From an uncultured virus (IMG/VR IMGVR_UViG_3300022841_000001) (taxonomy: Duplodnaviria; Heunggongvirae; Uroviricota; Caudoviricetes; Crassvirales), in the IMG/VR virus record IMGVR_UViG_3300022841_000001: a stretch of 64,000 bases of DNA. One strand, given 5' to 3'. Made by a program: the position numbers and the translations under genes. Below, piece by piece: positions 15,093 to 27,500 of this stretch. Within the stretch, counting starts at the first letter, position 1. Each line of letters begins with the position of its first letter. The notes beneath the pieces were generated by a model. It was not told the DNA's origin, searched no databases, and worked only from the letters and a program-made list of their open reading frames with translations.

Positions 15093-15119
15093 TTGATTTA
15101 ATTTAACTTGATTACTAAT

Positions 15120-15503
15120 TTATTTTAATTTCAATTTATAAGATGCATACTTCAAAAGTACCTCATCCCTTTTCTTTTTTAGATTCTTAATATGCTTATC
15201 ATTTTTTCTAGTATTGACTTCAGTCTTAATACTATCCTCGATAAGATTTAGCTTGTGCAGGCAGTTTTCTATAGAAATAAACAAACAACCTTTTCGCCAT
15301 CCGTTCCTGCAGAATATATTATACTCCTCATCACTACACTCTTTGTAATACATACCTCCTTTGTTGGTATTTAAGATCTCAATACGGTCTCTGAATTTTT
15401 GAATTTTAATACCCATACCTATAACGCTATGCGATTTATCATCCTTCGAGTGTGTTTTATTTAAAGCTATTGCCTCATTAAAAACATCATCTAAAGTACG
15501 CAT
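15120..15503 (-). CDS. Hypothetical protein
   Basis: ORF in the operon. Confidence 0.7.
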   Translation of the reverse strand: MRTLDDVFNEAIALNKTHSKDDKSHSVIGMGIKIQKFRDRIEILNTNKGGMYYKECSDEEYNIFCRNGWRKGCLFISIENCLHKLNLIEDSIKTEVNTRKNDKHIKNLKKKRDEVLLKYASYKLKLK

Positions 15504-15504
15504 A

Positions 15505-15798
15505 TTATTCGTTGGTTATTTCTTGAACCAACCTCTTGTAGTCCGAATCAGAATCAATCATTTTCTTTGCTTTGTTATACCCATACTTTATAGTAGTACG
15601 GTAAACTTTTAATCCATTGTCCAGCATAAATTGTGATATGTGGCTTATTTTAATTGGTCTTTCTACACATAAGTAGTATAAGAAATATCTTGCATCCACT
15701 ACATTTTCGTGATTGTCTTTGGTGTACATCTCTTCAAGTGTAATTGAGAATTTTATCGATACGGCTTTTGCGTATTTTTCGAATATGCTTCTTTTCAT
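15505..15798 (-). CDS. DnaA C-terminal (domain IV)-like HTH protein
   Basis: VSIKFSITLEEM...VVDARYFLYYL...ISHISQF...RTTIKYGYNK matches the DnaA_C pattern. Confidence 0.75.
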   Translation of the reverse strand: MKRSIFEKYAKAVSIKFSITLEEMYTKDNHENVVDARYFLYYLCVERPIKISHISQFMLDNGLKVYRTTIKYGYNKAKKMIDSDSDYKRLVQEITNE

Positions 15799-15914
15799 TA
15801 TGTTATATATTTAGTCTTATTTGTATCCAGTGTACTACTCATTGTCCATTCAGGTATGCCTCCACTGGGAGTTGTTACCCATTGATTTTGCCAGTCCTCT
15901 CTTGAAATTGTCAT
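15798..15914 (-). CDS. 38-aa hypothetical protein (start MTISRED)
   Basis: ATG at 15914 with an A-rich leader, downstream of the terminator; TAATG coupling to the next gene. Confidence 0.5.
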   Translation of the reverse strand: MTISREDWQNQWVTTPSGGIPEWTMSSTLDTNKTKYIT

Positions 15915-15935
15915 TGTATTATTGATTTGTATCAC

Positions 15936-15962
15936 AAAAACCCCCACACTTTCGTATGGAGG
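15936..15962 (-). terminator. Intrinsic terminator or attenuator
   Basis: CCTCCATAC-GAAA-GTGTGGGGG-TTTTT: 9-bp stem with two G-U pairs, GNRA loop and U tract. Confidence 0.8.
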
Positions 15963-15969
15963 CGGTTGC

Positions 15970-15992
15970 TTGAGAATCAACTACAATTCAAC
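15970..15992 (-). ncRNA. Candidate antisense seed hairpin in a 3' UTR, complementary to the early-gene initiation motif
   Basis: GAAUU-GUAGUU-GAUUC hairpin; AAUUGUAGUUGAUU is complementary to AAUYAACUACAAU upstream of several early start codons. Confidence 0.45.
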
Positions 15993-16154
15993 TTATATTC
16001 CTAGTGGATATTCATCCTCGTCCTCTTCTTCACTGGTAGTTGTATCCTGAGTTGAGTTACTATTACTTTGCTCATTCAGGTCTATGCTCATTGCTTGAAG
16101 AGCCTTGTTTGCTGGGTTGAGTCCTATGAAAAACTCCTTTAAATTGTCGTGCAT
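15993..16154 (-). CDS. 53-aa acidic protein (not in ORF track)
   Basis: MHDNLKEFFIGLNPANKALQAMSIDLNEQSNSNSTQDTTTSEEEDEDEYPLGI directly downstream of a promoter. Confidence 0.6.
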   Translation of the reverse strand: MHDNLKEFFIGLNPANKALQAMSIDLNEQSNSNSTQDTTTSEEEDEDEYPLGI

Positions 16155-16186
16155 AATTTAGTTAAAATTTGATTATATTTCGTTCA

Positions 16187-16216
16187 CAAATATAGTATAA
16201 AATATACATAATACAA
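16187..16216 (-). promoter_or_regulatory. Bacteroidota sigma70-type promoter (middle/replication genes)
   Basis: TTG-N19-TATATTTG, matching the -33/-7 consensus TTG...TAnnTTTG. Confidence 0.8.
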
Positions 16217-16224
16217 GTATAACT

Positions 16225-16812
16225 CTATGAATTTATTTTATTAATAGCATCAACTAGCTCTTGAAGATGTCCTTTGGATGCATACTTATGCTCCTCTCGA
16301 ATCTGCTCAAGCTCTTCTTTTTCACACCCTTCATAGTTATATGATAGGTTTTCCATCCAGTTACTCACATCGCTTTCGTAGTAGTATTCGTGTGCCGTCA
16401 TTTCTCTATGTAAAACAATGCCTTTGTGACCAATAGAAACAAATCCTGCAAAATCCATACCTGATTCTTCATACTCCATTTCTGCAGTCAGTTTGTATTT
16501 CTTACAAATTGCCTCTATTAGTTTTATTGGTGGCGACCAAGCCGAATCTCCTGAGACAATCATATCCTCGTCCCTGAAATAATCTCTTTCGTGAATCTCA
16601 AAATCCCACCACTTCGTGCCATAGTCGTATGGCTCAGCCAACCTGACTGAAGCAAGCCAAGCCTTATTATCAATCTCTGACAAGTCCAGAACAAAATCTC
16701 CAAACTCTGTAAAATAATTGACGTCATCATACTTGTCAAATTTATCTTGTAACTTTCTTAGCGATTCGTTGCTCCCATCGAAGCACACGTAATTATAACA
16801 ATTGTTTGCCAT
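16225..16812 (-). CDS. DUF1281/YubB ferredoxin-like protein
   Basis: MANxCYN, YGTKW, DSAWSPP and YEESGMDFAG motifs. Confidence 0.75.
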   Translation of the reverse strand: MANNCYNYVCFDGSNESLRKLQDKFDKYDDVNYFTEFGDFVLDLSEIDNKAWLASVRLAEPYDYGTKWWDFEIHERDYFRDEDMIVSGDSAWSPPIKLIEAICKKYKLTAEMEYEESGMDFAGFVSIGHKGIVLHREMTAHEYYYESDVSNWMENLSYNYEGCEKEELEQIREEHKYASKGHLQELVDAINKINS

Positions 16813-16813
16813 C

Positions 16814-17275
16814 TTATTTGTTTTTAGTAACTATTAATTCAATCTCTTTATCTCTAATAACTAACCTATTTCCCTCCTCTAGCTCGTCTAAGGAATCTTT
16901 TATATCATCATAACTGTGACAGTCTTTAATAAAATAGAAGTCCATCAGGTACTCTATTGTATCGTATATGTCTAAATCTTCTTCAGTGTTCGTGTATGAC
17001 TTGTTTGCTATGTGTTCACCAGTCTGTTTGAATTTGACATCAAACGTTTCCTCGGTGCTTTTAAGTTCCATTAAGTTTTCTGAAATGTCACGTATTGCAA
17101 ACCAAACTGCATCCATTGTGCTTTCGCAGGTTAAAGCAACGTGTAAAATGCTTTCTGCCTGCTCCTTGGTACATTTGTAATTATCCTGCACATCTTTGAG
17201 ATGCCATAAACCCTCAACATAGTACCCTTTGCTTTCTAAAAATTTCTTTGCACTTTCTTCTGTAATTTCACTCAT
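16814..17275 (-). CDS. Hypothetical early protein (acidic)
   Basis: Start preceded by AACTACA. Confidence 0.75.
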   Translation of the reverse strand: MSEITEESAKKFLESKGYYVEGLWHLKDVQDNYKCTKEQAESILHVALTCESTMDAVWFAIRDISENLMELKSTEETFDVKFKQTGEHIANKSYTNTEEDLDIYDTIEYLMDFYFIKDCHSYDDIKDSLDELEEGNRLVIRDKEIELIVTKNK

Positions 17276-17307
17276 TGTAGTTAATTTAAATTATTGACTT
17301 ATTGTCG

Positions 17308-17348
17308 TGGATAGGGAGGAATCGAACCTCCCAAGCACCTTGCTACCC
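17308..17348 (-). ncRNA. Mini tRNA-like element 1 (acceptor stem plus T-arm, no anticodon arm)
   Basis: GGGTAG-CAAGGTGCTTG-GGAGG-TTCGATT-CCTCC-CTATCC-A. Confidence 0.8.
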
Positions 17349-17349
17349 T

Positions 17350-17541
17350 TTACTTTCTAGCTTTTGCTAGTGACCTATTGACTAAAGCAATCAAGTCATA
17401 CAAGTGATGTTTCTCATCACTTCCTATTCGCTGACTCCAAGAGAGCATACCTTTAAGGTCGTGTCTCAATTCATTCAGGTCGCCAACAATCATCTTCATA
17501 GTTCTATTGGTCTTATCTAACTCCGCCTTCACGTCCTGCAT
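17350..17541 (-). CDS. Hypothetical early protein
   Basis: Packed ORF. Confidence 0.65.
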   Translation of the reverse strand: MQDVKAELDKTNRTMKMIVGDLNELRHDLKGMLSWSQRIGSDEKHHLYDLIALVNRSLAKARK

Positions 17542-17544
17542 ACC

Positions 17545-17811
17545 TTAAGAATTTAGGTGGTTATTGTTTACTATGTAAATCTCAGTCTCTACGCTCTGCG
17601 TTGATGAGTTCCATTCCTGAATAATCAGGTCGTAGTTCAGGTGCTTTGCATTGCAGGAAACTAGCAGGTCGTTCAGTTCATCCATTTCAGTTAGACGGAA
17701 ACTTCTATCTGTTGGTATCCTATCTCTTACTCCTCTCCTATCGTCACAACGAAATTCGTAGTAAACCTTGTTACTTGATATTAACTCTAAAATACTTCTT
17801 GGTGTTGCCAT
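17545..17811 (-). CDS. Hypothetical early protein
   Basis: Packed ORF. Confidence 0.7.
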   Translation of the reverse strand: MATPRSILELISSNKVYYEFRCDDRRGVRDRIPTDRSFRLTEMDELNDLLVSCNAKHLNYDLIIQEWNSSTQSVETEIYIVNNNHLNS

Positions 17812-17813
17812 AA

Positions 17814-17930
17814 TTATCTGTTTTTTAACTCTGTTTGTAATTGGTCTACTAGCTCCCTAGCGACATCTAACTCCTTCGGCTCTAAATGAAATCCATTTAG
17901 TAATTGCGTTATTATTTGTAAATCTTTCAT
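17814..17930 (-). CDS. 38-aa hypothetical protein (start MKDLQII)
   Basis: ATG at 17930 follows the upstream stop; the longer track ORF overlaps its neighbour. Confidence 0.55.
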   Translation of the reverse strand: MKDLQIITQLLNGFHLEPKELDVARELVDQLQTELKNR

Positions 17931-17934
17931 AGTT

Positions 17935-18312
17935 TTATCCGTATATAACTTCGCCAAAAATAACACACTGCAATACGCAGTCTGCATCAAAAGCATCGTC
18001 TCGTTCATTAATAATATTAAACAATGTATCCGGGTCGACTTTCGGGACTCCGGTAAGAACACTTTCTAAAACTATTTTAGTGAAATCATCATCACCAGCC
18101 TCCTCGTCCACAAAAGACAATGAATTACCGTCAAGCAGGATTTGCATCAGGACATCTTCATAACACCCATCCATCACTTTATCTTTAGCTGATTTGTAGT
18201 CTTCCATTTCGTACACTAGTCCTATACCGTAATAATGCATCTGAGACAGTCCATTGCATAATGAAGTGTGAAATACTCCTAAAATTTCTTCTCTTGTTAA
18301 TTTGATTTCCAT
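17935..18312 (-). CDS. Hypothetical early protein
   Basis: C-terminal DAFDADCVLQCVIFGEVIYG pattern recognised from phage early proteins. Confidence 0.75.
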   Translation of the reverse strand: MEIKLTREEILGVFHTSLCNGLSQMHYYGIGLVYEMEDYKSAKDKVMDGCYEDVLMQILLDGNSLSFVDEEAGDDDFTKIVLESVLTGVPKVDPDTLFNIINERDDAFDADCVLQCVIFGEVIYG

Positions 18313-18319
18313 AATTTAT

Positions 18320-18727
18320 TTATAAGTGTGTTAAACATTGATTGCAAAACGAAAAATCGTCTTGGTTATGCGTGTTAATACTTCCACATTTGTGGCATTT
18401 GTGACCCTCTTCCATAGAGACATCACAGTAGTAATCTCTGTTGATTATCTCGATAGCTAGATGCTCGATATAAATATCACTCATACTCTGTTCCGTCTCT
18501 AGCCAAATGTCACCATCTCGCTCAAGTAAGAATCTCTGAATAATATTATCCTCGTTTATCTCTGTAGCTATTTCCTCTATAGCTTCAGTAGACTGGATGT
18601 TGTCCAAGGGCATTGTTTGGCTAGGCATTCTTACCCTTGTGCGCTCCCAAGCTCTTGCACTATGTATCAAAATGATGTTGTAAATTTCTCTATCAAAATA
18701 CAACCGTGTTTCTAAATCTATTTCCAT
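18320..18727 (-). CDS. Hypothetical protein with C-terminal Zn ribbon
   Basis: CHKC...CNQC. Confidence 0.7.
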   Translation of the reverse strand: MEIDLETRLYFDREIYNIILIHSARAWERTRVRMPSQTMPLDNIQSTEAIEEIATEINEDNIIQRFLLERDGDIWLETEQSMSDIYIEHLAIEIINRDYYCDVSMEEGHKCHKCGSINTHNQDDFSFCNQCLTHL

Positions 18728-18729
18728 AT

Positions 18730-18960
18730 CTAATTGTGTTTATTTTCCTGAGCATACTCATATAACGCATCCATAAAAGAGTCTTCTAGTAAGTCCATAT
18801 AGAATCTAGTAATATCCATTCCATCCAGCATAACACTGGTCACCTCTAATTCATCTTCAGGAGGTGCAAATCTGTCCTCGTCATTCCATTCGTAATCGTA
18901 TTCAATGATTAACTCGTATCCAAACGGCTCTCCTACTGTGTAAATTCCTTTTGTCTTCAT
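18730..18960 (-). CDS. Small acidic early protein
   Basis: Packed ORF, very acidic. Confidence 0.7.
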   Translation of the reverse strand: MKTKGIYTVGEPFGYELIIEYDYEWNDEDRFAPPEDELEVTSVMLDGMDITRFYMDLLEDSFMDALYEYAQENKHN

Positions 18961-18971
18961 ATCTATCTTTT

Positions 18972-19205
18972 TTAATGGTTAAACATATCTTCCCAGCCAT
19001 CTACTCCTTGTGATACTCCTCCAGCTCTGCTGGGGAATTCTCTTTGAATATAGTCTGTCACATAATACTCTTGGTCTGTAAATGACTCACTTAAATCTGT
19101 GCAGTACTCATCAGCATCTTCTCTTGTTGAAAATCCATCCTGATTCATCTCACCTTGTCCGTGGTTATTGACCCACATTACCTTGTACATTGTTGTTCTC
19201 TTCAT
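18972..19205 (-). CDS. Small acidic early protein
   Basis: Start preceded by AATCAACTACA. Confidence 0.7.
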   Translation of the reverse strand: MKRTTMYKVMWVNNHGQGEMNQDGFSTREDADEYCTDLSESFTDQEYYVTDYIQREFPSRAGGVSQGVDGWEDMFNH

Positions 19206-19242
19206 TGTAGTTGATTTTAATCTCTGCCAAAATCGGCATTGT

Positions 19243-19283
19243 TGCTGGAGGAGGAATCGAACCTCTTTACATCCAATCCAGCA
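19243..19283 (-). ncRNA. Mini tRNA-like element 2
   Basis: (T)GCTGGA-TTGGATGTAA-AGAGG-TTCGATT-CCTCC-TCCAGC-A. Confidence 0.8.
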
Positions 19284-19291
19284 TTGGGTAT

Positions 19292-19789
19292 TTACCCACC
19301 ATAATTACTATCTATCCAGTCACACAATATGTTCCTATTGTTATCGTCCAGCTCCATAAATAACTTGAAGAAGTTAAGTGTTCCACCAAAACTATTACTG
19401 GCGTTTAGACTCGTCCATTTAGAAGTTATGTGACCAGTCATATGCTCATTGTTTGACCAAACTTTCTGTATCCAGTCGTGAGGAAAATTGTTGGCGAAGT
19501 ACATAAATTTAATGATGTTGGAATTGCCTACAAAAACTGGCTCAACAACCTCAATCTCTTCAGACTCCCATTCTGTCCATAGGTATTCTTCGTTATTATA
19601 AGACTCATTTAGTAGGAATTCATCCGACAAAACCTCATCACCTTTTGATGTTATTTGTCTAGACTTAATCCATTGTATCAAGTCTGCTTCATATTTAAAT
19701 ATCTCGCCATCTTCACAAAGATATCCTTCAAAAATTCCTGCTCCAGTTGCGCTACACGTTCTTGGAAATACTACGTTTTGTTTTGTCAT
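19292..19789 (-). CDS. Hypothetical early protein
   Basis: 165-aa ORF, apparently two domains. Confidence 0.75.
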   Translation of the reverse strand: MTKQNVVFPRTCSATGAGIFEGYLCEDGEIFKYEADLIQWIKSRQITSKGDEVLSDEFLLNESYNNEEYLWTEWESEEIEVVEPVFVGNSNIIKFMYFANNFPHDWIQKVWSNNEHMTGHITSKWTSLNASNSFGGTLNFFKLFMELDDNNRNILCDWIDSNYGG

Positions 19790-19794
19790 AATTT

Positions 19795-19908
19795 CTATCT
19801 GTTTACTACGTTATAATTTGATGCTTTTGATGAACACTGGAAGCTTCCACAACTTGAAAACATTACCAATATAATTAACACTACTACTACTTTTAATTGT
19901 CTACTCAT
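19795..19908 (-). CDS. 37-aa lipoprotein (not in ORF track)
   Basis: MSRQLKVVVVLIILVMFSS|CGSFQCSSKASNYNVVNR: basic N-region, hydrophobic core, lipobox FSSC. Confidence 0.65.
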   Translation of the reverse strand: MSRQLKVVVVLIILVMFSSCGSFQCSSKASNYNVVNR

Positions 19909-19924
19909 TTTATCTATTTTTAAA

Positions 19925-20257
19925 TTAATATGCTGATGTTGCTCTTTTTTGAATGTTTTCAAATGTATCGTCCTCGTCTCTGTAATCCCTAGTTAAATTG
20001 TGGTAATACTTCATCAACTCTTTACCTATAGAGTCTAGCTCACCGAATCTGTCCACATACTGTAGTTGTAGCATTACATTAGATTCTTGAGACCTAATGG
20101 TATCATTCACCTGAATAGCTCCCATCATTCCACCACCTAAGTAGTTTTGATATGCCGACATTTTGTGACCCTTGAATCCTATTGATGTTAAACTAATTTC
20201 AACACCTCCACCTCTAGTTGAGGTTTCTTTTCTTACTGTCATTTTCTTAAAGTTCAT
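19925..20257 (-). CDS. Hypothetical early protein
   Basis: Start preceded by AACTACA; immediately downstream of hammerhead 1. Confidence 0.75.
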   Translation of the reverse strand: MNFKKMTVRKETSTRGGGVEISLTSIGFKGHKMSAYQNYLGGGMMGAIQVNDTIRSQESNVMLQLQYVDRFGELDSIGKELMKYYHNLTRDYRDEDDTFENIQKRATSAY

Positions 20258-20273
20258 TGTAGTTATAATTTAA

Positions 20274-20326
20274 GTTAATAACCACCATTGCTGGTGGTTT
20301 TCATCCTTCAGGAATCATCAGTTAAC
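20274..20326 (-). ncRNA. Type I hammerhead ribozyme 1
   Basis: GUUAA-CUGAUGA-UUCC UGAA GGAU-GAAA-ACCACCA GCAA UGGUGGU-UA-UUAAC; predicted cut after UUA, between 20279 and 20278. Confidence 0.9.
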
Positions 20327-20444
20327 CACTTACTGTTATTGTACCATTGGCGTAATGACTACATATTAATCCAGTTGGTAGTACTACCACCTTTACTTGT
20401 TTTGATTTAAAAATCGACTTTACTTTTCTTGCTATTAGTTTCAT
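20322..20444 (-). CDS. 40-aa basic protein (not in ORF track)
   Basis: MKLIARKVKSIFKSKQVKVVVLPTGLICSHYANGTITVSG; its stop codon lies in ribozyme stem I. Confidence 0.55.
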   Translation of the reverse strand: MKLIARKVKSIFKSKQVKVVVLPTGLICSHYANGTITVSG

Positions 20445-20445
20445 A

Positions 20446-21126
20446 TTATTCTAGTGTTTCTAATCTTTCGTTAACTTCTTTTAATGTGTATGTTTTTTCG
20501 CTATCTACGTAGTCTCTAAACTCTTCGATATAGCCTTCACTTATGTCTTGCCTCAGTTCGTAGTCGTCTTTATACTCAGACAGATACTCGTGAATTATTC
20601 CTTCAGAATGGTCGCCATATTTGAACAACTTAGCATCCGTGTATCCTCCTCTAGCATCTGCACCATTGTGTATCTGAATAAGAATATACTCCTCATCATT
20701 TATGGTTAGGTTAGAACCCTGAAGTATCTGAGACAAATCACTGTCACCGTTATAAGTGTTCCAGACTCTCTGCTCAATAACATCATTCTCAAAGGAGTTA
20801 ATGTGGTCAAATGCATTCCTGCTCACTCCGTAAGATTCACAGTCAGAATTCCAATCATCAGACTCTTCCTGAATCTCGTTAAACTCATCGCATAAATCAT
20901 CCAGCTGGAGGTTATTGGTTAGGTAATGAAACACAGATACTGTCCTCATTATATCACCTCTTTCCCAGTCGAATTCATAAACCTCCATTTCTTCATTGTT
21001 AAAATCCTCAATGGTCTTCTTTTGGTTTCTTTGCCAGCCTCTGCCTTCAGAAAATCCACTGTCACCCATCGCTTTACCAGTATTTTCGGTAAGCATTCCG
21101 TAAACTAATTTTTGTACTTGATTCAT
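20446..21126 (-). CDS. Hypothetical early protein (acidic)
   Basis: MLTENTG...DSG...RGWQRNQ, NTYNGDSDLSQILQ and QIHNGADARGGYTD segments. Confidence 0.8.
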   Translation of the reverse strand: MNQVQKLVYGMLTENTGKAMGDSGFSEGRGWQRNQKKTIEDFNNEEMEVYEFDWERGDIMRTVSVFHYLTNNLQLDDLCDEFNEIQEESDDWNSDCESYGVSRNAFDHINSFENDVIEQRVWNTYNGDSDLSQILQGSNLTINDEEYILIQIHNGADARGGYTDAKLFKYGDHSEGIIHEYLSEYKDDYELRQDISEGYIEEFRDYVDSEKTYTLKEVNERLETLE

Positions 21127-21147
21127 AATTGTAGTTAATTTAATTTA

Positions 21148-21200
21148 AGTTAATAGCCATTCGAAAATGGCTTTCATCCTTCAGGAATCGTCAGTTAACT
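21148..21200 (-). ncRNA. Type I hammerhead ribozyme 2
   Basis: AGUUAA-CUGACGA-UUCC UGAA GGAU-GAAA-GCCAUU UUCG AAUGGC-UA-UUAACU; predicted cut after CUA, between 21154 and 21153. Confidence 0.9.
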
Positions 21201-21405
21201 ATATTTTAAAGGTTAATACCTCGTTTATGTCATCAATTTCATTCTGAGTGAACAATATGAAATCAGAACCTATAGCCTGCTGGATGCAGTTTAGGTAAGC
21301 TCTTTTTAATTCATTTTCTGTAGGGTAATACTCATTCAGAACCTCATCTTCCTTCCATCTTTCAAACATCTTAGTGTTTGCATCTAATAATTCTTTAAAA
21401 GTCAT
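21199..21405 (-). CDS. Hypothetical early protein
   Basis: ATG at 21405; stop overlaps hammerhead 2 stem I. Confidence 0.65.
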   Translation of the reverse strand: MTFKELLDANTKMFERWKEDEVLNEYYPTENELKRAYLNCIQQAIGSDFILFTQNEIDDINEVLTFKI

Positions 21406-21426
21406 AATCAATAATTTAAGTTAATA

Positions 21427-21660
21427 TTATATTCTTGGTACAAAGTGTTCGTCTTTAGACATCAGCCCAACAAAATCGTGCATCACGTCATCCTGAGAAA
21501 ATAAAGATTCATCATCAAATAGCCTTTCAGCCCATTCAGGATTGTCCATTATAAGTATTGCACAAACGCCTTCCCTCGTTAATCGCTGGATGTCTGCAAA
21601 GTGGTCTAGTATCCCATCAGGAATAAGATTGTAAAGTAATTCTTCTTTTAATTCATTCAT
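21427..21660 (-). CDS. Small acidic early protein
   Basis: Start preceded by AACTACAATT. Confidence 0.7.
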   Translation of the reverse strand: MNELKEELLYNLIPDGILDHFADIQRLTREGVCAILIMDNPEWAERLFDDESLFSQDDVMHDFVGLMSKDEHFVPRI

Positions 21661-21673
21661 AATTGTAGTTGTT

Positions 21674-21940
21674 TTAGTATAATTCAGAGTTTTCGATTAA
21701 TTTAACTTGGTATGCTGGTAGCTCATTGCAGTAATCTTGATACTTATCAAACGAGTCTTCACATTTCTTGTTTATCCTGCGCCATTCACTGGTCTCATTC
21801 TCCTGCTGACCCTCAATCTCATCACGCAGTATGTTGAACGCATTATACTTCTCCAGCCACTGGATGGCTCTATTTAAATTTACCTGATTCTTCTTTGCTT
21901 TAGCTATCATCTTAGTTGTTTTTATGTGATTCATATGCAA
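21674..21940 (-). CDS. Hypothetical early protein (start uncertain)
   Basis: Packed ORF. Confidence 0.65.
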   Translation of the reverse strand: MHMNHIKTTKMIAKAKKNQVNLNRAIQWLEKYNAFNILRDEIEGQQENETSEWRRINKKCEDSFDKYQDYCNELPAYQVKLIENSELY

Positions 21941-22169
21941 TCATATCGTAAGCTGGTGAGTAATACTTCACGGTGCCATTGATGGAATTAATCTTTTCTA
22001 TTTTTGCCTCCAGCTCTATCTTTTTTCGGTAATCACTGTGCAGTATCTTGCTTGCATCTTCCGTAGTATAGATGATTGCTGACACTAGATTTGATATCAA
22101 ATCACTGCCGTTATAATACGTTAATTTGTCCTCCGTTAATACGTTCATTACTGTTGCTGATGTCTTCAT
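21912..22169 (-). CDS. Hypothetical early protein
   Basis: Packed ORF. Confidence 0.65.
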   Translation of the reverse strand: MKTSATVMNVLTEDKLTYYNGSDLISNLVSAIIYTTEDASKILHSDYRKKIELEAKIEKINSINGTVKYYSPAYDMIAYESHKNN

Positions 22170-22171
22170 AA

Positions 22172-22426
22172 TTATCTTAGTTTATTAATTAATATTCCCT
22201 CTAATCCTATTGCTACTAACGTGAATACAGTTATCATCTGAATTTTCGTCCATACACTGTTGTAAATTTGGTCTACAGTCATATAGCTCTCACTGTGTAT
22301 CTGAATGTCCAGCAACAATAGATTGTCTATCTCTATTATTCTACTGTATAAATCAAATCCTAACACAAATCCTGATACTATAAATACTCCTAACCCAATC
22401 GCAATCACTATTCCTAAAATTCTCAT
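22172..22426 (-). CDS. Early membrane protein (2 TM)
   Basis: Hydrophobic N- and C-terminal segments. Confidence 0.7.
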   Translation of the reverse strand: MRILGIVIAIGLGVFIVSGFVLGFDLYSRIIEIDNLLLLDIQIHSESYMTVDQIYNSVWTKIQMITVFTLVAIGLEGILINKLR

Positions 22427-22458
22427 ATCAATCTATTTTTAATTATTGTTACTATTAG

Positions 22459-22498
22459 TAAGAGTGCAGGAATCGAACCTGCATTAACCATTACTCTT
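22459..22498 (-). ncRNA. Mini tRNA-like element 3
   Basis: AAGAGT-AATGGTTAAT-GCAGG-TTCGATT-CCTGC-ACTCTT-A. Confidence 0.85.
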
Positions 22499-22509
22499 GG
22501 AAATTCATA

Positions 22510-22920
22510 CTACTTGATATAATCCTCCAGCTCCTTCCAGTCAGCTTGTGCATCTACCTTTCTTTCCTGCTCACGTACATCATCAATCAACTTCCCAACA
22601 GCTCGAACAATGTCAGTAGCACAAGATGATGAAGACATAACTGGATTACCAGCTACAGTAGTTACCCTGAGTGACCAAGTCGAGTCACCATATCGCATCA
22701 TATCAAGCGCATTCTTCTCGCTATTCTTTGTGAATTGCATAATGTATTTGTCACTGGTGATTATTACTTTCCACATTGCCTTTGTTCCCTGATTGTCTGT
22801 GGTCTCTATCACTGCTCCATCACATAGCATTCTATATGCTAGCTTTACATAGTCATATTCCATTTGGGTCATCTTTGATGCATTGAATTTCGGCATTACT
22901 ACTTTGATTGTGTTTCTCAT
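22510..22920 (-). CDS. Hypothetical early protein
   Basis: 136-aa ATG ORF. Confidence 0.75.
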   Translation of the reverse strand: MRNTIKVVMPKFNASKMTQMEYDYVKLAYRMLCDGAVIETTDNQGTKAMWKVIITSDKYIMQFTKNSEKNALDMMRYGDSTWSLRVTTVAGNPVMSSSSCATDIVRAVGKLIDDVREQERKVDAQADWKELEDYIK

Positions 22921-22922
22921 AA

Positions 22923-23027
22923 TTATTGGTTTCTTTTGTTATCGGTTAAAGTTATTATTATTAGTACTATTAAGGTGATAAATATCACTGGTATCATAAT
23001 GTTGGTAAACGTGTTAAGCATAATCAT
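22923..23027 (-). CDS. 34-aa single-TM peptide, probable first early gene (not in ORF track)
   Basis: MIMLNTFTNIMIPVIFITLIVLIIITLTDNKRNQ with an A/T-rich leader. Confidence 0.55.
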   Translation of the reverse strand: MIMLNTFTNIMIPVIFITLIVLIIITLTDNKRNQ

Positions 23028-23041
23028 AGTTATTAAATTAG

Positions 23042-23090
23042 TCACCAGTGTAGGTATTGCTCCTATAAAATGCTCACTGCATCACTGGTG
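23042..23090 (-). ncRNA. Three-way-junction, tRNA-like element 4
   Basis: CACCAGTG-[ATGC AGTGA GCAT]-TTTA-[TAGG AGCAATA CCTA]-CACTGGTG-A. Confidence 0.55.
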
Positions 23091-23520
23091 TTCTGTTCTC
23101 GCTATTCGGGGAGTCTTTATACTTTACCCAAGCAAAATTCATACATTACTTCAAAGCCCATTTAATCAAATCCGCTACTAGATGATTAAGATTCATTAAC
23201 CCCATCTACAGATGGTTAAACACTTGGTTATCGTGAAGGAGACCATTAGAAAGGCATTACCGTGACTGGCTTTAATCCTAATGGCTGACAGTGTTTTATG
23301 CTTTGATATCACTGTACTATATGGATTGACTTACTAAAGACGCTTGGTCTACACTACTTCGCTTGATAGATATGGATAGAGATACAATCCCGCATTTAAG
23401 CAGTTGGCTGATTGTGAGCAGGTTAAGAAGATATAGTTAAACCCTTACTTGAAGTAAGGTGATGTAACTGCCTGATTCTCAGTAGTTTAAGTCAATATGT
23501 CAATGAACTGGCGCCTAAGC
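23091..23520 (-). ncRNA. Long structured non-coding leader of the early transcript
   Basis: No credible ORF; nested complementary segments ATTGACTTA/TAAGTCAAT, GCAGTT/AACTGC, CCTTACT/AGTAAGG, AAACACT/AGTGTTT and CCATTAG/CTAATGG. Confidence 0.5.
23493..23508 (-). promoter_or_regulatory. boxA-like antitermination motif
   Basis: GTTCATTGACATATTG about 17 nt downstream of the putative early promoter; resembles rrn boxA. Confidence 0.55.
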
Positions 23521-23525
23521 GAGTA

Positions 23526-23533
23526 CAATTATA
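23526..23533 (-). promoter_or_regulatory. Putative early promoter -7 element
   Basis: cgTATAATTG (one mismatch to TAnnTTTG) just upstream of the boxA-like motif; no clear -33 element. Confidence 0.4.
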
Positions 23534-23910
23534 CGAAATATAAATCATTAATGAGCATAAAATGTGTATAATTATTGCATAATAATTGTATAATCACTGC
23601 TGGCAAGCAAATATTCCAAGCTACATAGTAATTTAATACACAGAACATACTCTAAGACTCCACCAGTTAACAAAGCAATATTGTCTAATTACGGGGTTAA
23701 TGCCTATGATACATTACGATACAAAGCTTTCGATGGGGTTTTAGGCAGAACCTCTGTTCTTGCCATTTATTAGACTTTCTTTCCTTTTGCCTTGGAATAG
23801 CCCAGTTATGATGACTCAGCCCAGCACAATCGCAGGTATTGCCTTCTTTATAATTGATACACCAGCATATCGGCTGGACAATATAGTATTAATGATAAAA
23901 CCAGCATATA

Positions 23911-24023
23911 ATCAACATAACCAACATAACCAACATGGAATCCTGCAGCAATCGACATGCATAACCAACATAAAGTCAACACAAATCCCGAAAAAATCAA
24001 CACAAAATGTCGAAAATCAACAC
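23911..24023. repeat. Cluster of CAACA(T/C) iteron-like repeats
   Basis: CAACATAAC tandem units with a 9-bp period, plus several TCAACAC copies. Confidence 0.7.
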
Positions 24024-24228
24024 AAAACAGACTAAAAACATCGGTTTTCTTTCGAGCAAGGTCGATCGTATAACCCCCTATAGCCCTCAACTTCTTTGTA
24101 TATTGACTTAAAAAAATTTTTTTTGCCTAAAAATGTTAATAATCAACACAACTATGGTGATTTCTAAAAATAATCAACACAACTTATCTATTTGATTATC
24201 AGTACTTTAGAGATACTATTTACTATTA

Positions 24229-24343
24229 ATGTTAATTATGTTGATTTTTCCTCGTAAAAAAAATAAAAAAAATAATATATTACACTATTCCTATACAGTA
24301 AAAACTATTTAAAAAAAGTGAAAAAAACCAACATTTTCAACAT
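24229..24343. other. Putative replication origin element B
   Basis: Same inverted-arm architecture and span as 13123-13236; preceded by an IHF-consensus site at 24197-24209. Confidence 0.5.
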
Positions 24344-24367
24344 TACTACTTTTCAATAATAAATTCT

Positions 24368-24375
24368 TATCTTTG
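24368..24375 (+). promoter_or_regulatory. Promoter -7 element for groEL
   Basis: TATCTTTG 25 nt before the ATG. Confidence 0.7.
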
Positions 24376-24400
24376 TTTAAATTAAATTAAATAGAATAAT

Positions 24401-25987
24401 ATGAGTAATTACATTCCAAAGAACCTTGATTTTGACAGTGCTGGAAGGGACAAATTAATTCAGGGTATTACAAAGATTTCCAAGGCTGTAAAAAGCACGC
24501 TTGGGCCGAGAGGAAAAACTGTATTAATTGAGTCCACGGATCATCTTGGTGGGATTGTTATTACTAAGGATGGTGTTACTGTGGCCAACTCTATTTTTTT
24601 GAATGACCCTATTGAAAATTTAGCTGTTCAGATGCTGAAGGATGCTGCTCGCAAGACGGCTAATACTGCAGGTGATGGAACGACTACTGCTATTGTTTTG
24701 ACTGAGGCTATTGTTTTGGCTGGTCAGGAATTTTTAGATTCTGGGAGTAATGTTTCGGAGGTTGTTAAGTTCATAAATGATTATAGTGAGTTTGTGGTTG
24801 ATGTTTTGACTGAGAATTCAAAAGCAATTAGTGACTCTATGTTACATGACGTTGCTACTATTTCATCAAACAATGACCATGAGCTGGGTGGTATCATTTC
24901 TGATGCTTACAAGAAAGTTGGAAAGAATGGTATTGTAACTATTGAGCGATCTCAAAACCATGAGACATATGCAACGGTAACTGAGGGTATAAAAATAGAC
25001 AGGGGTTACACTTCTAATTTATTTATTACCAACCAGAAAAACGATGAATGTGTTCTGGAGGATGTTCATATTTTAGTGTGTGACCAGGAGATAAGTAACC
25101 TACTACAATTGGAGCCTTTATTAAAACCATTGATGGCGAAAAACAAGAAGCTTTTGATAATCGGGCCTTGCTCGGTAAATGTTGTACAGACTTTGGCTTT
25201 AAATGTTGTTCGTCAAGGATTCAAGATGTGTAATATAATGCCACCTCAGTTTGGTTACAAGCAGCATGAATTAATGCAAGACATTGCTATGTCTGTTGGC
25301 GCCAAGTATTTCTCTGAAAAGACCGGTGATGATTTGAGTCACATATCTATTGATGACTTAGGGCATGCTGACAAGATCATTTGTGGAAAAAGTCAAACGG
25401 TTGTTGTGAAAGGAAAAGAGGTTACACCTGAAATATCTACAAGGATTGAAGAGTTGAAGGAGCAGCAAAGAAATACGACTATCACTGCTGACCGTGAATT
25501 TATAAACGAGCGTATCGCAAGTCTATCTGGATCAATTGGATCTATATTTGTTGGGGCTAATTCTGACATTGAGCAGAAAGAAAAGTACGACAGAGTCGAG
25601 GATGCTGTTTGTGCGGTAAGATCTGCATTGGAAGAAGGAATTGTAAAAGGTGGAGGAGTTGCTCTTATGGAGTCATCGATTAAACTTGATGGAATTCCAG
25701 TCCCAGAAAACCAAGACCAGATGGTCGCATTGAATATTTTAAAGAATGCTTGCTTAGAGCCTATTGCTCAGATAATTAAAAACGCAGGTAAGGATTTTGT
25801 TGAGGTTTACTCTACTGCTAACGGAAAAGGTTATGATGTAAAGGCAGAGGTTTACGGAGATATGTTTGAGATGGGAATTATTGATCCCTTGAAGGTAACA
25901 AAAAATGCATTTAAAAATGCGGTGAGTGTTGCAACGACTATCCTAACCACAAACGCGATTATTACACACGCGCGCGCGAGAGATTAA
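24401..25987 (+). CDS. groEL: Phage-encoded chaperonin GroEL (Cpn60)
   Basis: STLGPRG, ITKDGVTVA, AGDGTTTA, DRGY, EEGIVxGGG and GIIDPLKVT motifs. Confidence 0.97.
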   Translation: MSNYIPKNLDFDSAGRDKLIQGITKISKAVKSTLGPRGKTVLIESTDHLGGIVITKDGVTVANSIFLNDPIENLAVQMLKDAARKTANTAGDGTTTAIVLTEAIVLAGQEFLDSGSNVSEVVKFINDYSEFVVDVLTENSKAISDSMLHDVATISSNNDHELGGIISDAYKKVGKNGIVTIERSQNHETYATVTEGIKIDRGYTSNLFITNQKNDECVLEDVHILVCDQEISNLLQLEPLLKPLMAKNKKLLIIGPCSVNVVQTLALNVVRQGFKMCNIMPPQFGYKQHELMQDIAMSVGAKYFSEKTGDDLSHISIDDLGHADKIICGKSQTVVVKGKEVTPEISTRIEELKEQQRNTTITADREFINERIASLSGSIGSIFVGANSDIEQKEKYDRVEDAVCAVRSALEEGIVKGGGVALMESSIKLDGIPVPENQDQMVALNILKNACLEPIAQIIKNAGKDFVEVYSTANGKGYDVKAEVYGDMFEMGIIDPLKVTKNAFKNAVSVATTILTTNAIITHARARD

Positions 25988-25998
25988 AACTAAAAGAG

Positions 25999-26205
25999 AT
26001 GGCTAAAGCAGCATACCTTGGTACTGAACTTAACGATGAGGCTAAAAAGCGCATACTAAACACAGAGTTTTTTGTAGATCTAGAGATTCACTCTATTGAT
26101 TTATGGGATGCTTTATTGTCAAATGGTTTAGATGTGGAGCAATGGTCTGAGAAAAACAATGGAAATCAAATTTATTTAAAAAATACAGAGTATGACACCA
26201 ATTAA
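25999..26205 (+). CDS. Hypothetical protein between groEL and groES
   Basis: ATG ORF overlapping the groES start. Confidence 0.6.
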   Translation: MAKAAYLGTELNDEAKKRILNTEFFVDLEIHSIDLWDALLSNGLDVEQWSEKNNGNQIYLKNTEYDTN

Positions 26206-26449
26206 CAAATACATAGTTATCAAAACAATTGACGAGGAGATGAAAACTCAGTCCGGATTTCTTTTGTCTTCCACAGATGTGGATGGATTTAGGTACAAAA
26301 AGGGCATCATAGTAAAACCTGGAACCGAAGTTAGTGTTATTGAGGTTGGTGATACAATATACTATGATAAAAACTCAGGTTGTACGCTTATGATCAACGA
26401 TGAAACATTTACCATAATTCAAGAAAGAGATGTGGTTATTGTTTTATAA
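26192..26449 (+). CDS. groES: Co-chaperonin GroES (Cpn10)
   Basis: MTPINKYIVI, KTQSGFLL mobile loop, VGDTIYY, IIQERDVVIVL. Confidence 0.9.
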   Translation: MTPINKYIVIKTIDEEMKTQSGFLLSSTDVDGFRYKKGIIVKPGTEVSVIEVGDTIYYDKNSGCTLMINDETFTIIQERDVVIVL

Positions 26450-26519
26450 GAAATAAAACCGTACATTTGGAACTATGTCGATTCCATTTGACACAATTTT
26501 CTTTTTTATAGCAACTTTT

Positions 26520-26547
26520 CCCACCTCTCTACGATGTGGGTTTTTTT
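26520..26547 (+). terminator. Probable terminator of the groEL operon
   Basis: CCCAC...GTGGG followed by a T7 tract. Confidence 0.5.
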
Positions 26548-26999
26548 ATTTCAGCATTCATCTTAACTATCATAGATCGGTTTGCTTCTTCCATGTAGGT
26601 TAGATTTTTTTTGAACAGTGGATTTGTTGCAGGAAGTTCAGAAATCTCCTCACCATTTAATTTTTTGTAAACGGTATTTATTATTCTTTTTGATCTGTAC
26701 GTCAATTCGTAAAGTGTTGCTTCGGATCCGGTTCGTTTTCTCCAGACATGAATATAGTCATCGGTAAGAAGTTGCTTAAATCTTTTTACATCCCAAGCCA
26801 TAACATATTCAAATTCTTTAAATTTTTCTTTGTTGAATATCTGTTCGCTGTATAGAAATAATAGCATTTCTAAATCAGGGGTTCCTAGTCCATATTTTTT
26901 CTTGACCCAAAATCTAACGACTCTCCAATATTTTAAAAAATCGTGTTCAGGCTGGGTTCTCCAAGTATTCTTGTGCTGCTGTACTCCTTTAACTTTCAT
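26529..26999 (-). CDS. Winged-HTH (MarR-like) regulator, probable
   Basis: LGTPDLEMLLFLY...RFKQLLTDDYI...LYELTYRSKRII; lone minus-strand gene in the late arm. Confidence 0.6.
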   Translation of the reverse strand: MKVKGVQQHKNTWRTQPEHDFLKYWRVVRFWVKKKYGLGTPDLEMLLFLYSEQIFNKEKFKEFEYVMAWDVKRFKQLLTDDYIHVWRKRTGSEATLYELTYRSKRIINTVYKKLNGEEISELPATNPLFKKNLTYMEEANRSMIVKMNAEIKKPTS

Positions 27000-27012
27000 T
27001 AGATTAAATTCT

Positions 27013-27030
27013 TTATCTTTGTAAAGATAA
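27013..27030. promoter_or_regulatory. Palindromic overlapping divergent promoters
   Basis: TTATCTTT-GT-AAAGATAA gives TATCTTTG on + and TATCTTTA on -. Confidence 0.6.
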
Positions 27031-27047
27031 TTATAAATAAATAAATC

Positions 27048-27155
27048 ATGCCAAAAGTAGGAAACAAGAAGTTCGCTTATACTGAAAAAGGAAAAAAAGC
27101 CGCAAAAGCGGCAGCAAAAAAAACAGGAAAGAAGGTAGTTAAAAAGAAATACTAA
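27048..27155 (+). CDS. 35-aa Lys/Ala-rich basic peptide (not in ORF track)
   Basis: MPKVGNKKFAYTEKGKKAAKAAAKKTGKKVVKKKY; TAATG coupling to the next gene. Confidence 0.7.
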   Translation: MPKVGNKKFAYTEKGKKAAKAAAKKTGKKVVKKKY

Positions 27156-27409
27156 TGGCTACTCCAAGAAAGGGTAAAGCAAAAGTTAAGGTAACCTCTT
27201 CAGGTAAAAAGGTCAGTTATGGTCAGGCAGGTAATGCAAAAGGAGGAGGGCCAAGAGTAAAGCCTGGAACAAGTAAGGGTGATAGTTATTGCGCTAGAAG
27301 TCTTGGTATAAAAAAAGGTCTTTCTATGAGTAAGCAAAACGACCCGAATACTCCAAACAATTTATCTCGTAAGAGGTGGAAATGTTCAGGGGCTAAGTCA
27401 AAAAAGTAA
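27155..27409 (+). CDS. Small basic phage protein
   Basis: VSYGQ...SYCARS...PNNLSRKRWKC pattern. Confidence 0.75.
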   Translation: MATPRKGKAKVKVTSSGKKVSYGQAGNAKGGGPRVKPGTSKGDSYCARSLGIKKGLSMSKQNDPNTPNNLSRKRWKCSGAKSKK

Positions 27410-27459
27410 ATTAAGGTATTAGGTTTTTATTCAACCCAAAAGATTGAGATAAATATTTG

Positions 27460-27467
27460 TATATTTG
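27460..27467 (+). promoter_or_regulatory. Promoter -7 element
   Basis: TATATTTG in an intergenic region. Confidence 0.6.
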
Positions 27468-27500
27468 TGTTAGTTGGATTAATAATTAAAATTTTATACT

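What the first reader, a model, noticed from the sequence alone, without database searches (positions are those of the whole stretch)
21148..21200. Hammerhead ribozyme 2: paralogue with a fully replaced stem III
It has the same stems I and II as copy 1, but N7 is C (the freely variable core position) and stem III is different yet fully paired (GCCAUU/AAUGGC with a UUCG loop, against ACCACCA/UGGUGGU with GCAA). Variation only where hammerheads tolerate it argues that both copies are functional, and the U.U at 10.1-11.1 is kept in both. Stem I again overlaps the upstream stop (UAG). Both cuts create the identical new 5' end UUAACUUAAAUUA.
Basis: partly seen in the sequence, partly recalled or inferred. 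Interest (0 to 1): 0.78.

Follow-up and report, generated by a model that had tools for sequence, protein, structure and literature searches.

The report
Phage intergenic type I hammerhead ribozyme
This is very probably a real self-cutting RNA (a hammerhead ribozyme) between two small early genes of a phage of Flavobacteria-like bacteria, one of two copies in the window; it is an ordinary member of a large phage family.

Summary
On the minus strand, 21200..21148 reads AGUUAA-CUGACGA-UUCC UGAA GGAU-GAAA-GCCAUU UUCG AAUGGC-UA|UUAACU. This is a complete type I hammerhead. A17 is 21154 and the predicted cut lies between 21154 and 21153. A second copy at 20327..20273 has the same stems I and II, U instead of C at N7, and a wholly different but fully paired stem III.

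A covariance model built only from hammerheads of other viral contigs scores the two copies at 49.3 and 47.9 bits (E about 1e-10). The next best hit in the 64 kb window scores 11 bits. Stems II and III covary strongly across relatives.

The window is a tailed phage whose terminase resembles those of Flavobacterium and Cellulophaga phages. The ribozymes sit in the early small-gene cluster. Each overlaps the upstream stop codon and lies 27 or 21 nt before the next ATG.

The U10.1·U11.1 mismatch is not new. Perreault et al. 2011 report it in natural hammerheads. I found it in 87 of 104 distinct viral matches to the U·U stem II pattern.

Rfam misses both copies. Cleavage was not tested and no RNA data were found.

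Verdict: a new member of a known kind, of low to moderate interest. The scan has noted phage hammerheads before on other DNA.

The parts
21148..21200 (-). Hammerhead ribozyme copy 2 (HH2), type I, whole element
   Evidence: Sequence read. Model R1 gives 49.3 bits, E 1.1e-10, full length 1-54. The minimum-energy fold is the three-way junction.
21195..21200 (-). HH2 stem I 5' strand AGUUAA; the upstream gene's stop UAG (21201-21199) overlaps it
   Evidence: ORF 21199..21411.
21188..21194 (-). HH2 core C3-A9 (CUGACGA; N7 = C at 21190)
21176..21187 (-). HH2 stem II hairpin UUCC-UGAA-GGAU with U10.1.U11.1
   Evidence: The same 12-nt module type occurs in L044, L046, L281, L372 and others.
21172..21175 (-). 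HH2 core G12 A13 A14 A15.1
21154..21171 (-). HH2 stem III hairpin GCCAUU-UUCG-AAUGGC, then U16.1 (21155) and A17 (21154); predicted cut between 21154 and 21153
   Evidence: The cut site is inferred from the hammerhead consensus and was not measured.
21148..21153 (-). HH2 stem I 3' strand UUAACU, the first bases of the predicted 3' product
21124..21147 (-). Leader UAAAUUAAAUUAACUACAAUU plus the ATG (21126-21124) of the 226-aa gene 20446..21126
   Evidence: Cut-to-ATG distance is 27 nt.
20273..20327 (-). Hammerhead ribozyme copy 1 (HH1), type I; stop UAA 20324-20322 inside stem I; predicted cut between 20279 and 20278; next ATG at 20257
   Evidence: R1 gives 47.9 bits, E 2.6e-10..
21412..21426 (-). 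Third copy of the leader UAUUAACUUAAAUUA with no ribozyme, directly after the stop (21429-21427) of gene 21427..21660 and before the ATG at 21405
   Evidence: The relative G002/L131 has a hammerhead at the equivalent junction.

Best explanation
HH2 (21200-21148, minus strand) and HH1 (20327-20273) are genuine type I hammerhead self-cleaving ribozymes. They lie in the long leftward early transcript of a tailed phage related to Flavobacterium and Cellulophaga podophages.

Proposed mechanism:
- As RNA polymerase passes, each roughly 53-nt element folds into a three-way junction: a 6-bp open stem I, a 3-bp stem II with a U.U closing pair and a tetraloop, and a 7-8-bp stem III.
- It cuts after A17 by internal transesterification.
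- The upstream gene is left with a structured 3' end bearing a 2',3'-cyclic phosphate.
- The downstream gene is left with a 5'-OH end and a 21-27-nt AU-rich leader.
- The weak AU-rich stem I lets the products separate.
- The net effect is to split the polycistronic early message into separately stable and separately translated pieces.

What is shown: the motif, its full-length match to an independent model, covariation in relatives, and the tight stop-ribozyme-leader-ATG packing. What is inferred: cleavage itself, the chemistry of the ends (from the established hammerhead mechanism), and the consequence for expression.
For: (1) All core positions are present, with A15.1-U16.1 and A17.

(2) Model R1 was built from 29 hammerheads of other viral contigs; the window's copies and L046 were left out. 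It scores the two sites at 49.3 and 47.9 bits, full length. The third-best hit in 64 kb scores 11.1 bits.

(3) In those 29 sequences, 97.8% of cells pair, against 74.6% in shuffles. There are 101 double-sided changes against 30.4, and 0 of 500 shuffles reach the covariation score. The pairing collapses when the partner columns are slid.

(4) Of 127 matches in viral contigs to a loose core pattern, 77 have both hairpins paired. Shuffling the two segments gives 0.83 on average, with a maximum of 4 in 200 shuffles.

(5) Paralogues and orthologues differ in informative ways. The window's two copies share stem II and differ in stem III. The relative G002 has two copies that share stem III and differ in stem II, one with G-C and one with U.U.

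(6) The outer stem I pair covaries: G-C in 66, A-U in 4, G.U in 1 and A.C in 1 of 72.

(7) Across the 72 elements, an upstream ORF ends within -15 to +8 nt of the stem I start in 61. A downstream ATG-ORF was found in 66, at a median of 21 nt after the cut (18-32 nt in 62 of the 66).

(8) No minus-strand terminator-like site lies between 24500 and 17981 (a crude scan).

(9) Natural U10.1-U11.1 hammerheads are described by Perreault 2011. That paper says earlier mutagenesis found U-U to support more cleavage than any other mispair (section 8 read whole).
Against: - No Rfam hammerhead model reports either copy, even at E <= 10 on a 151-nt slice.
- Stem II has only 3 Watson-Crick pairs and lacks the usual G10.1-C11.1. 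Stem I is 6 bp with a single G-C pair.
- With flanks, the minimum-energy fold of HH2 pairs UAGUUAA with a second UUAACUA in the leader (21139-21133) instead of the active stem I. HH1's stem I strand can likewise pair with AACUAC near the start codon.
- The stop codon lies inside or against stem I, so terminating ribosomes would unfold the ribozyme.
- The loci behind R1 were fetched with a pattern copied from the window's own stem I and core, and were kept only if their hairpins paired. Sequence similarity in stem I and the core is therefore built in, and the pairing percentages are inflated.
- No cleavage assay was run and no RNA data were available.
Confidence: 0.8

Rival explanations
1. The elements are hammerhead-derived but catalytically weak or dead relics. 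The U.U at 10.1-11.1, the 3-bp stem II and the NUA cleavage triplets would slow them so much that they no longer process the mRNA. They would persist only as intergenic hairpins, for example protecting the 3' end.
For: Both copies carry U.U instead of G-C, and UA rather than the common UC at 16.1-17. In the stem-I-independent sample, 100 of the 111 type I elements printed have C at position 17 (my count of the printed rows). Rfam models do not score the copies. Competing folds exist with flanks.
Against: - The core is intact in both copies and in relatives.
- U.U recurs in 87 of 104 distinct viral matches that have full three-stem architecture, which argues for selection rather than decay.
- G002 keeps a U.U copy and a G-C copy side by side.
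- Perreault 2011 treats natural U10.1-U11.1 as compatible with activity.
Confidence: 0.1
2. The ribozyme is a regulated switch rather than a constitutive cutter. Either pairing of the stem I 5' strand with the AACUA(C) element of the downstream leader, or ribosomes terminating on the stop codon inside stem I, would decide whether the active fold forms. Cleavage would then be coupled to translation of the upstream gene or to initiation on the downstream gene.
For: - Alternative pairings appear in the minimum-energy or centroid folds of both copies with flanks.
- The AACUACAAU element before the ATG is conserved in both window copies and in G002.
- In the family, the upstream ORF's stop starts at stem I position +3 in 24 elements, or at +7 (the UGA of CUGA) in 11, out of 61.
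Against: - The alternative helices are 5-7 AU-rich pairs that share AACU with stem I by construction, so they may be incidental.
- The proximal strand is transcribed first, and hammerheads can cut within seconds to minutes.
- The +3 and +7 stops are fixed letters of the search pattern, so any ORF in those frames must end there.
- There is no covariation test for the alternative helix.
Confidence: 0.08
3. It is not a ribozyme at all. Two unrelated intergenic hairpins (a processing or protein-binding site, a repeat element or a terminator) happen to be flanked by CUGANGA and GAAA.
For: CUGAUGA and GAAA are short motifs that also occur in kink-turn or C/D-like RNAs. Rfam gave only weak snoRNA-like noise here.
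Against: - The spacing, A15.1-U16.1, H17, three covarying helices and the core are kept across dozens of unrelated stem sequences.
- The chance expectation for the paired architecture is 0.83 against 77 observed.
- No T-run follows stem III, so it is not an intrinsic terminator.
Confidence: 0.02

Closest known systems
Type I hammerhead ribozymes of phages and prophages (Perreault et al. 2011, PMC3088659; Rfam RF00163 Hammerhead_1)
   Same: Same core, same three-helix junction, an open stem I, an intergenic position in phage operons, and several copies close together. Natural U10.1-U11.1 is already reported there (passages and section 8 read).
   Different: The window's copies score below every Rfam hammerhead model, even at E <= 10. 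Canonical members of the same phage class reach only 19.8-26.9 bits against a cut-off of 34. Stem II is a 12-nt UUCN-tetraloop-NGAU module, and the cleavage triplets are CUA and UUA.
Type III phage hammerheads with a U.U stem II (found here in viral contigs)
   Same: An identical core plus stem II module, CUGAYGA-UUCC-NAAA-GGAU-GAAA, with A at position 17 in 71 of 76.
   Different: The topology is circularly permuted. Stem I is a closed 6-7-bp hairpin with a loop of about UGUGUA and stem III is open. The window's elements have an open stem I and a closed stem III.
RAGATH-1 / pseudoknot hammerhead (Rfam RF03152)
   Same: A type I hammerhead with a short stem I in phage-like DNA. RF03152 gives weak sub-threshold hits on canonical members of the same phage class: 24.4-33.5 bits against a cut-off of 56.3.
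   Different: RF03152 includes an upstream hairpin and an almost absent stem II. The window's copies have no RF03152 hit, a 3-bp stem II and coding sequence upstream.
Mobile regulatory cassettes of T4-type phages
   Same: A repeated short intergenic module (here hammerhead plus leader) sits at the edges of gene insertions and deletions between related phages.
   Different: Here the repeat is a ribozyme plus a translation leader, not a promoter. That recombination occurs at it is inferred from four relatives only.

Membership tests
Hammerhead ribozyme | Conserved core C3 U4 G5 A6 N7 G8 A9 and G12 A13 A14 | tested here: met
   CUGACGA and GAAA in HH2; CUGAUGA and GAAA in HH1. Aligned full length by R1.
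Hammerhead ribozyme | A15.1-U16.1 pair followed by H17 (not G) at the cleavage site | tested here: met
   A21172-U21155 and A17 = 21154 in HH2. The equivalent pair and A20279 in HH1.
Hammerhead ribozyme | Three helices around the core, supported by covariation | tested here: met
   Stems II and III: 8 of 10 pairs show double-sided changes in 29 relatives, and 0 of 500 shuffles reach the covariation score. Stem I: 48 different 6-bp sequences among 111 class members. HH1 against HH2: stem III is fully replaced and still paired.
Hammerhead ribozyme | G10.1-C11.1 closing pair of stem II (typical, not obligatory) | tested here: not met
   U.U in both copies. This is a documented natural variant, present in 10 of 72 family members and in 87 of 104 matches to the U.U pattern.
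Hammerhead ribozyme, type I topology | Stem I open, stems II and III closed by loops; the ribozyme body lies 5' of the cut | tested here: met
Hammerhead ribozyme | Tertiary contact between stem I and loop II that gives fast cleavage | not testable with these tools
   No loop or bulge is visible in the 6-bp stem I. The only hint is that the flanks (U before and UAAA after stem I) recur with the tetraloop form of stem II in 6 of 11 other type I U.U elements.
Hammerhead ribozyme | Site-specific self-cleavage | not testable with these tools
   No assay was possible and no RNA run was listed.
Rfam hammerhead families (RF00163, RF00008, RF02275-7, RF03152) | Score at or above the family's gathering cut-off | tested here: not met
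   No hit at gathering level on the window. None at E <= 10 on 15 kb or on 151 nt.
RAGATH-1 / pseudoknot hammerhead | Upstream hairpin and a minimal (about 1-bp) stem II | tested here: not met
   No RF03152 hit. Stem II has 3 pairs plus U.U, and the upstream sequence is the end of an ORF.

The most novel reading that the evidence does not exclude
The hammerhead plus its roughly 25-nt leader (UA|UUAACUUAAAUUA...ACUACAAU-AUG) may be a portable 'gene boundary' module, at which Flavobacteriia podophages gain and lose early genes.

Repeated copies of the module would provide the short homology for cassette insertion and deletion. The ribozyme would then make each newly joined gene an independent mRNA with a ready-made leader.

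The evidence does not exclude this:
- The window has three leader copies, two of them with ribozymes.
- G002 has a ribozyme exactly where the window has a bare leader, and it lacks the genes between HH2 and the 165-aa gene.
- L387 has a bare leader where G002 has three genes plus a ribozyme.
- L388 has a ribozyme directly before the same conserved gene.
Probability: 0.2. Interest if true: 0.5.

Novelty: new member of a known kind. Interest (0 to 1): 0.25.

Why it matters
On its own this adds two more examples to the thousands of known hammerheads, so it matters little. Three practical points follow.

1. A large class of phage type I hammerheads falls below Rfam's cut-offs, so it is invisible to routine annotation. 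The class has a 6-bp open stem I, a stop codon inside or against the ribozyme, and a leader of about 20 nt. In a cultured Flavobacterium phage, one such element lies under a spurious 35-aa opposite-strand CDS.
2. The U10.1·U11.1 stem II is common, not rare, in phage hammerheads of two topologies.
3. A cultured phage-host pair (Elemovirus with Flavobacterium sp. BAL314) carries a relative of the element. What such ribozymes do for phage gene expression could be tested there directly.

Tried and rejected
- **Rfam.** No hammerhead hit at gathering level on the whole window, at E <= 10 on 15000-30000, or on 21100-21250. Only snoRNA- and miRNA-like noise was returned.
- **ARAGORN.** No tRNA in the window.
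- **Failed or empty searches.**
  - One search failed on a pattern-syntax limit and was re-written.
  - The exact stem II pattern in viral contigs gave 0 matches.
  - blastn of 19900-22500 against GenBank phages gave no match.
  - The window's own assembly is not held.
  - The nearest held record, G001, is an 18.8-kb fragment with no match to this region.
- **Closest named relative.** MW202828.1 (72% terminase identity) has no R1 match at E <= 0.01.
- **Sequencing runs.** No RNA holder is listed.
- **Laid runs.** laid DNA contigs only. One diverged contig in X14 spans both ribozymes, but the table of differences was cut, so I could not read whether its changes in the stems are compensatory.
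- **Related loci.** The search for related loci with the single 165-aa protein found nothing. An alignment with the G002 homologue then found 5 loci.
- **Pfam.** Nothing for the nine flanking proteins. PHROGs gave only phrog_11344, of unknown function, for the 226-aa protein.
- **Promoter and terminator scan.** The promoter count is at chance level (28 found, 31.3 expected), and the scan is not designed for Bacteroidota promoters.
- **Rejected idea.** I considered UUAACUUAAAUUA as a product-specific signal. It also occurs at 21426-21412 with no ribozyme, and 1-mismatch variants lie before other genes, for example 24377-24389 before the GroEL-like gene.

Full report
**What is there**

Read on the minus strand, window 21200-21148 is AGUUAA CUGACGA UUCC-UGAA-GGAU GAAA GCCAUU-UUCG-AAUGGC U A UUAACU. 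In hammerhead numbering:
- stem I: 21200-21195 paired with 21153-21148
- core C3-A9: 21194-21188, with N7 = C
- stem II: 21187-21176
- G12-A15.1: 21175-21172
- stem III: 21171-21156
- U16.1: 21155
- A17: 21154

The predicted cut falls between 21154 and 21153.

The first copy lies at 20327-20273: GGUUAA CUGAUGA UUCCUGAAGGAU GAAA ACCACCA-GCAA-UGGUGGU U A UUAACU. The two copies share stems I and II. They differ at N7 and have entirely different, fully paired stems III. That includes the overlap of the upstream stop codons with stem I (UAG 21201-21199; UAA 20324-20322) and the common start UUAACUUAAAUUA of both predicted 3' products.

**Is it more than chance?**

Rfam does not help. No hammerhead family is reported for the window at gathering level, at E <= 10 on 15 kb, or on a 151-nt slice. 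I therefore looked for relatives.

- Of the 127 matches, 77 have both spacers folding as hairpins. Shuffling the spacers gives 0.83 on average, with a maximum of 4 in 200 shuffles.
- After removing duplicates there are 70 distinct elements plus the window's two.

I aligned 29 of these 70. I chose short to medium lengths and left out the window's copies and the close relative L046.
- On that alignment, 97.8% of cells pair, against 74.6% in shuffles.
- There are 101 double-sided changes against 30.4.
- No shuffle of 500 reaches the covariation score.
- Pairing collapses to 28-43% when the partner columns are slid.

Two biases must be stated. The loci were fetched with letters copied from the window's own stem I and core. 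The rows were also kept because their hairpins paired. Stem I and core identity are therefore built in, and the pairing percentage is inflated. The amount of compensatory change is not.

The covariance model R1 built from these 29, run without filters over the whole window, gives 49.3 bits (E 1.1e-10) at 21200-21148 and 47.9 bits (E 2.6e-10) at 20327-20273. Both are full length. The next hit scores 11.1 bits. The window therefore holds exactly two copies. Each minimal sequence has the three-way junction as its minimum-energy fold.

**The family**

A second scan fixed only the common stem II (GNCUUNAAUAGNC) and the core, and left stem I free. Of these, 111 are type I hammerheads with a stem I of 6 bp, in 48 different sequences. 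Stem I therefore covaries too. GGUUAA/UUAACC is simply its commonest version (23 of 111).

Across the 72 elements:
- N7 is U 35, C 23, A 9, G 5.
- The outer stem I pair is G-C 66, A-U 4, G.U 1, A.C 1.
- The 10.1-11.1 pair is G-C 53, U.U 10, A.A 5, G.U 2, U.C 1, A.C 1.

Rfam's type I model scores canonical members of this class at only 19.8-26.9 bits against a cut-off of 34. RF03152 (RAGATH-1) gives 24.4-33.5 bits against 56.3. The class as a whole thus sits below routine annotation thresholds.

**The U.U pair**

Perreault et al. [quoted passage not shown] They add that earlier mutagenesis (their reference 27, which I did not read) found U-U to support more cleavage than any other mispair. A full-text search for 'U10.1' with 'hammerhead' returns only that paper.

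- 76 are complete type III hammerheads: a closed stem I with a loop of about UGUGUA, stem II UUCC-AAAA-GGAU, and A17 in 71.
- 11 are complete type I hammerheads.

The U.U stem II is therefore common in phage hammerheads of two topologies, and the window's copies are the type I form.

Within the 11 type I cases, 6 share with the window's HH2 an A-U outer stem I pair, a U before stem I and UAAA after it. This may mark a particular tertiary contact. I could not test that.

**Context**

The window is a tailed phage. It encodes a terminase, portal, tail fibre, GroEL-like chaperonin, helicase, primase, exonuclease and Sak-like annealing protein. Its large terminase is most like those of Flavobacterium (68 records), Cellulophaga (15), Tenacibaculum (2) and Maribacter (1) phages. 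An uncultured podovirus, MW202828.1, is closest at 72% identity.

The ribozymes lie in the minus-strand block of small early genes of unknown function. No minus-strand terminator-like site lies between 24500 and 17981 (a crude scan). The region is therefore plausibly one long transcript.

HH2 follows the 68-70-aa ORF 21199..21411 and precedes the 226-aa ORF, whose ATG at 21126 is 27 nt after the cut. HH1 follows the 40-aa ORF 20322..20444 and precedes the 110-aa ORF, whose ATG at 20257 is 21 nt after the cut.

The same packing holds family-wide.
- An upstream ORF ends within -15 to +8 nt of the stem I start in 61 of 72 elements.
- In 24 of those the stop is the UAA inside stem I, and in 11 it is the UGA of CUGA. 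Both are fixed letters of my pattern, so any ORF in those frames must end there.
- A downstream ATG-ORF was found in 66 of 72, at a median of 21 nt after the cut.

**Relatives and gene cassettes**

Contig G002 (13.3 kb) shares several early genes with the window. It has two R1 hits: 43.4 bits with G-C at 10.1-11.1 and C17, and 42.0 bits with U.U and A17. They share stem III and differ in stem II. This is the mirror image of the window's pair.

- **G002 against the window.** In G002 the U.U copy sits directly after the homologue of gene 21427..21660 (both end ..DEHFVPRI) and directly before the homologue of the window's 165-aa gene 19292..19789.
- **The window.** That same upstream gene is followed by a bare leader UAUUAACUUAAAUUA (21426-21412) with no ribozyme. 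Then come a 68-aa gene, HH2, the 226-aa gene, a 40-aa ORF, HH1, a 110-aa gene and a 55-aa ORF, and only then the 165-aa gene.
- **Other relatives.** L391 repeats G002's arrangement. L388 has a G-C hammerhead (48.3 bits) just before the homologue. L387 has a bare leader there and lacks three genes plus the ribozyme that G002 has.

Gene gains and losses between these phages thus end at hammerhead or leader modules. This is the basis of the novel reading. It rests on four relatives and on no statistics.

**A cultured relative**

Flavobacterium phage vB_FspP_elemoA_7-9A (NC_055852.1) has one R1 hit at 17290-17347 on the minus strand, at 35.2 bits, with stem I GGCAAA/UUUGUC. It is unannotated and is covered by a 35-aa opposite-strand CDS, gp68. 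It offers a tractable system for testing function.

**Mechanism and rivals**

The best-supported reading is constitutive co-transcriptional self-cleavage that splits the early polycistronic RNA.
- The ribozyme body stays on the 3' end of the upstream message.
- The downstream message begins with 5'-OH UUAACU and a short AU-rich leader.
- The end chemistry follows from the established hammerhead mechanism. The effect on stability and translation is inference.

Points against:
- the weak stems and the U.U pair
- the competing pairings of the stem I strand with UUAACUA or AACUAC in the leader
- ribosomes terminating on the stop inside stem I

These keep alive a 'slow or dead relic' reading (about 0.1) and a 'translation- or leader-coupled switch' reading (about 0.08). 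A non-ribozyme reading is very unlikely (about 0.02).

**Expression data**

No RNA run holding this DNA is listed. The laid runs are DNA contigs only.

**Verdict**

The element is a new member of a known kind. Earlier agents of this scan described phage hammerheads on other DNA, but none on this genome or sequence. Interest is low to moderate.

Noticed in passing
window 21412-21426 (-), compared with L131 2520-2615: A bare copy of the leader UAUUAACUUAAAUUA follows gene 21427..21660 with no ribozyme. The relative G002 has a hammerhead at exactly this junction and lacks the window's genes between there and the 165-aa gene. Gene insertions and deletions between relatives end at hammerhead or leader modules (also seen in L387 and L388).
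   Followed up: partly
L262-L386 (viral contigs): A large class of type III phage hammerheads, 76 of 104 distinct matches. They have a closed 6-7-bp stem I with a conserved loop of about UGUGUA, stem II UUCC-AAAA-GGAU with U10.1.U11.1, and A at position 17. Many are followed by a GGAGG-type ribosome-binding site.
   Followed up: partly
L136-L261 (viral contigs): 111 of 116 distinct matches are type I hammerheads with a 6-bp open stem I in 48 different sequences. The flanks are conserved: A before the first G of stem I, and AA after its last C. Rfam RF00163 scores tested members at only 19.8-26.9 bits (cut-off 34), so the class goes unannotated.
   Followed up: partly
NC_055852.1 17290-17347 (-) = L135 about 791-848: Cultured Flavobacterium phage elemoA 7-9A carries an unannotated hammerhead of this class (35.2 bits). 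It lies under a 35-aa opposite-strand CDS (gp68), which is probably spurious. An unannotated 21-codon ORF ends with UAG right at its stem I.
   Followed up: partly
window 21133-21139 and 21195-21201 (-): The leader after HH2 contains a second UUAACUA. It can pair with UAGUUAA (7 bp) in place of the active 6-bp stem I, and this is the minimum-energy fold of the 111-nt context. HH1's GUGGUU can pair with AACUAC next to its start codon.
   Followed up: no
L008 734-785 (-) and L013 74-129 (+): Other self-cleaving ribozymes lie within a few hundred bases of type I hammerheads in viral contigs: a twister-P1 match (51.9 bits, cut-off 67.2) and a type III hammerhead match (43.2 bits, cut-off 48.5).
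   Followed up: no
window 17307-17382 (-): A weak tRNA-like match (Rfam tRNA-Sec model, 21.7 bits, E 2.2) with a good T-arm GGUUCGAUUCC. ARAGORN finds no tRNA in the window.
   Followed up: no
window 24377-24389 (+), 10053-10065 (-), 17281-17293 (+): One-mismatch variants of the leader motif (UUAAAUUAAAUUA) lie elsewhere. One sits 12 nt before the ATG of the GroEL-like gene at 24401. This suggests a general AU-rich gene leader of this phage rather than a ribozyme-specific sequence.
   Followed up: no
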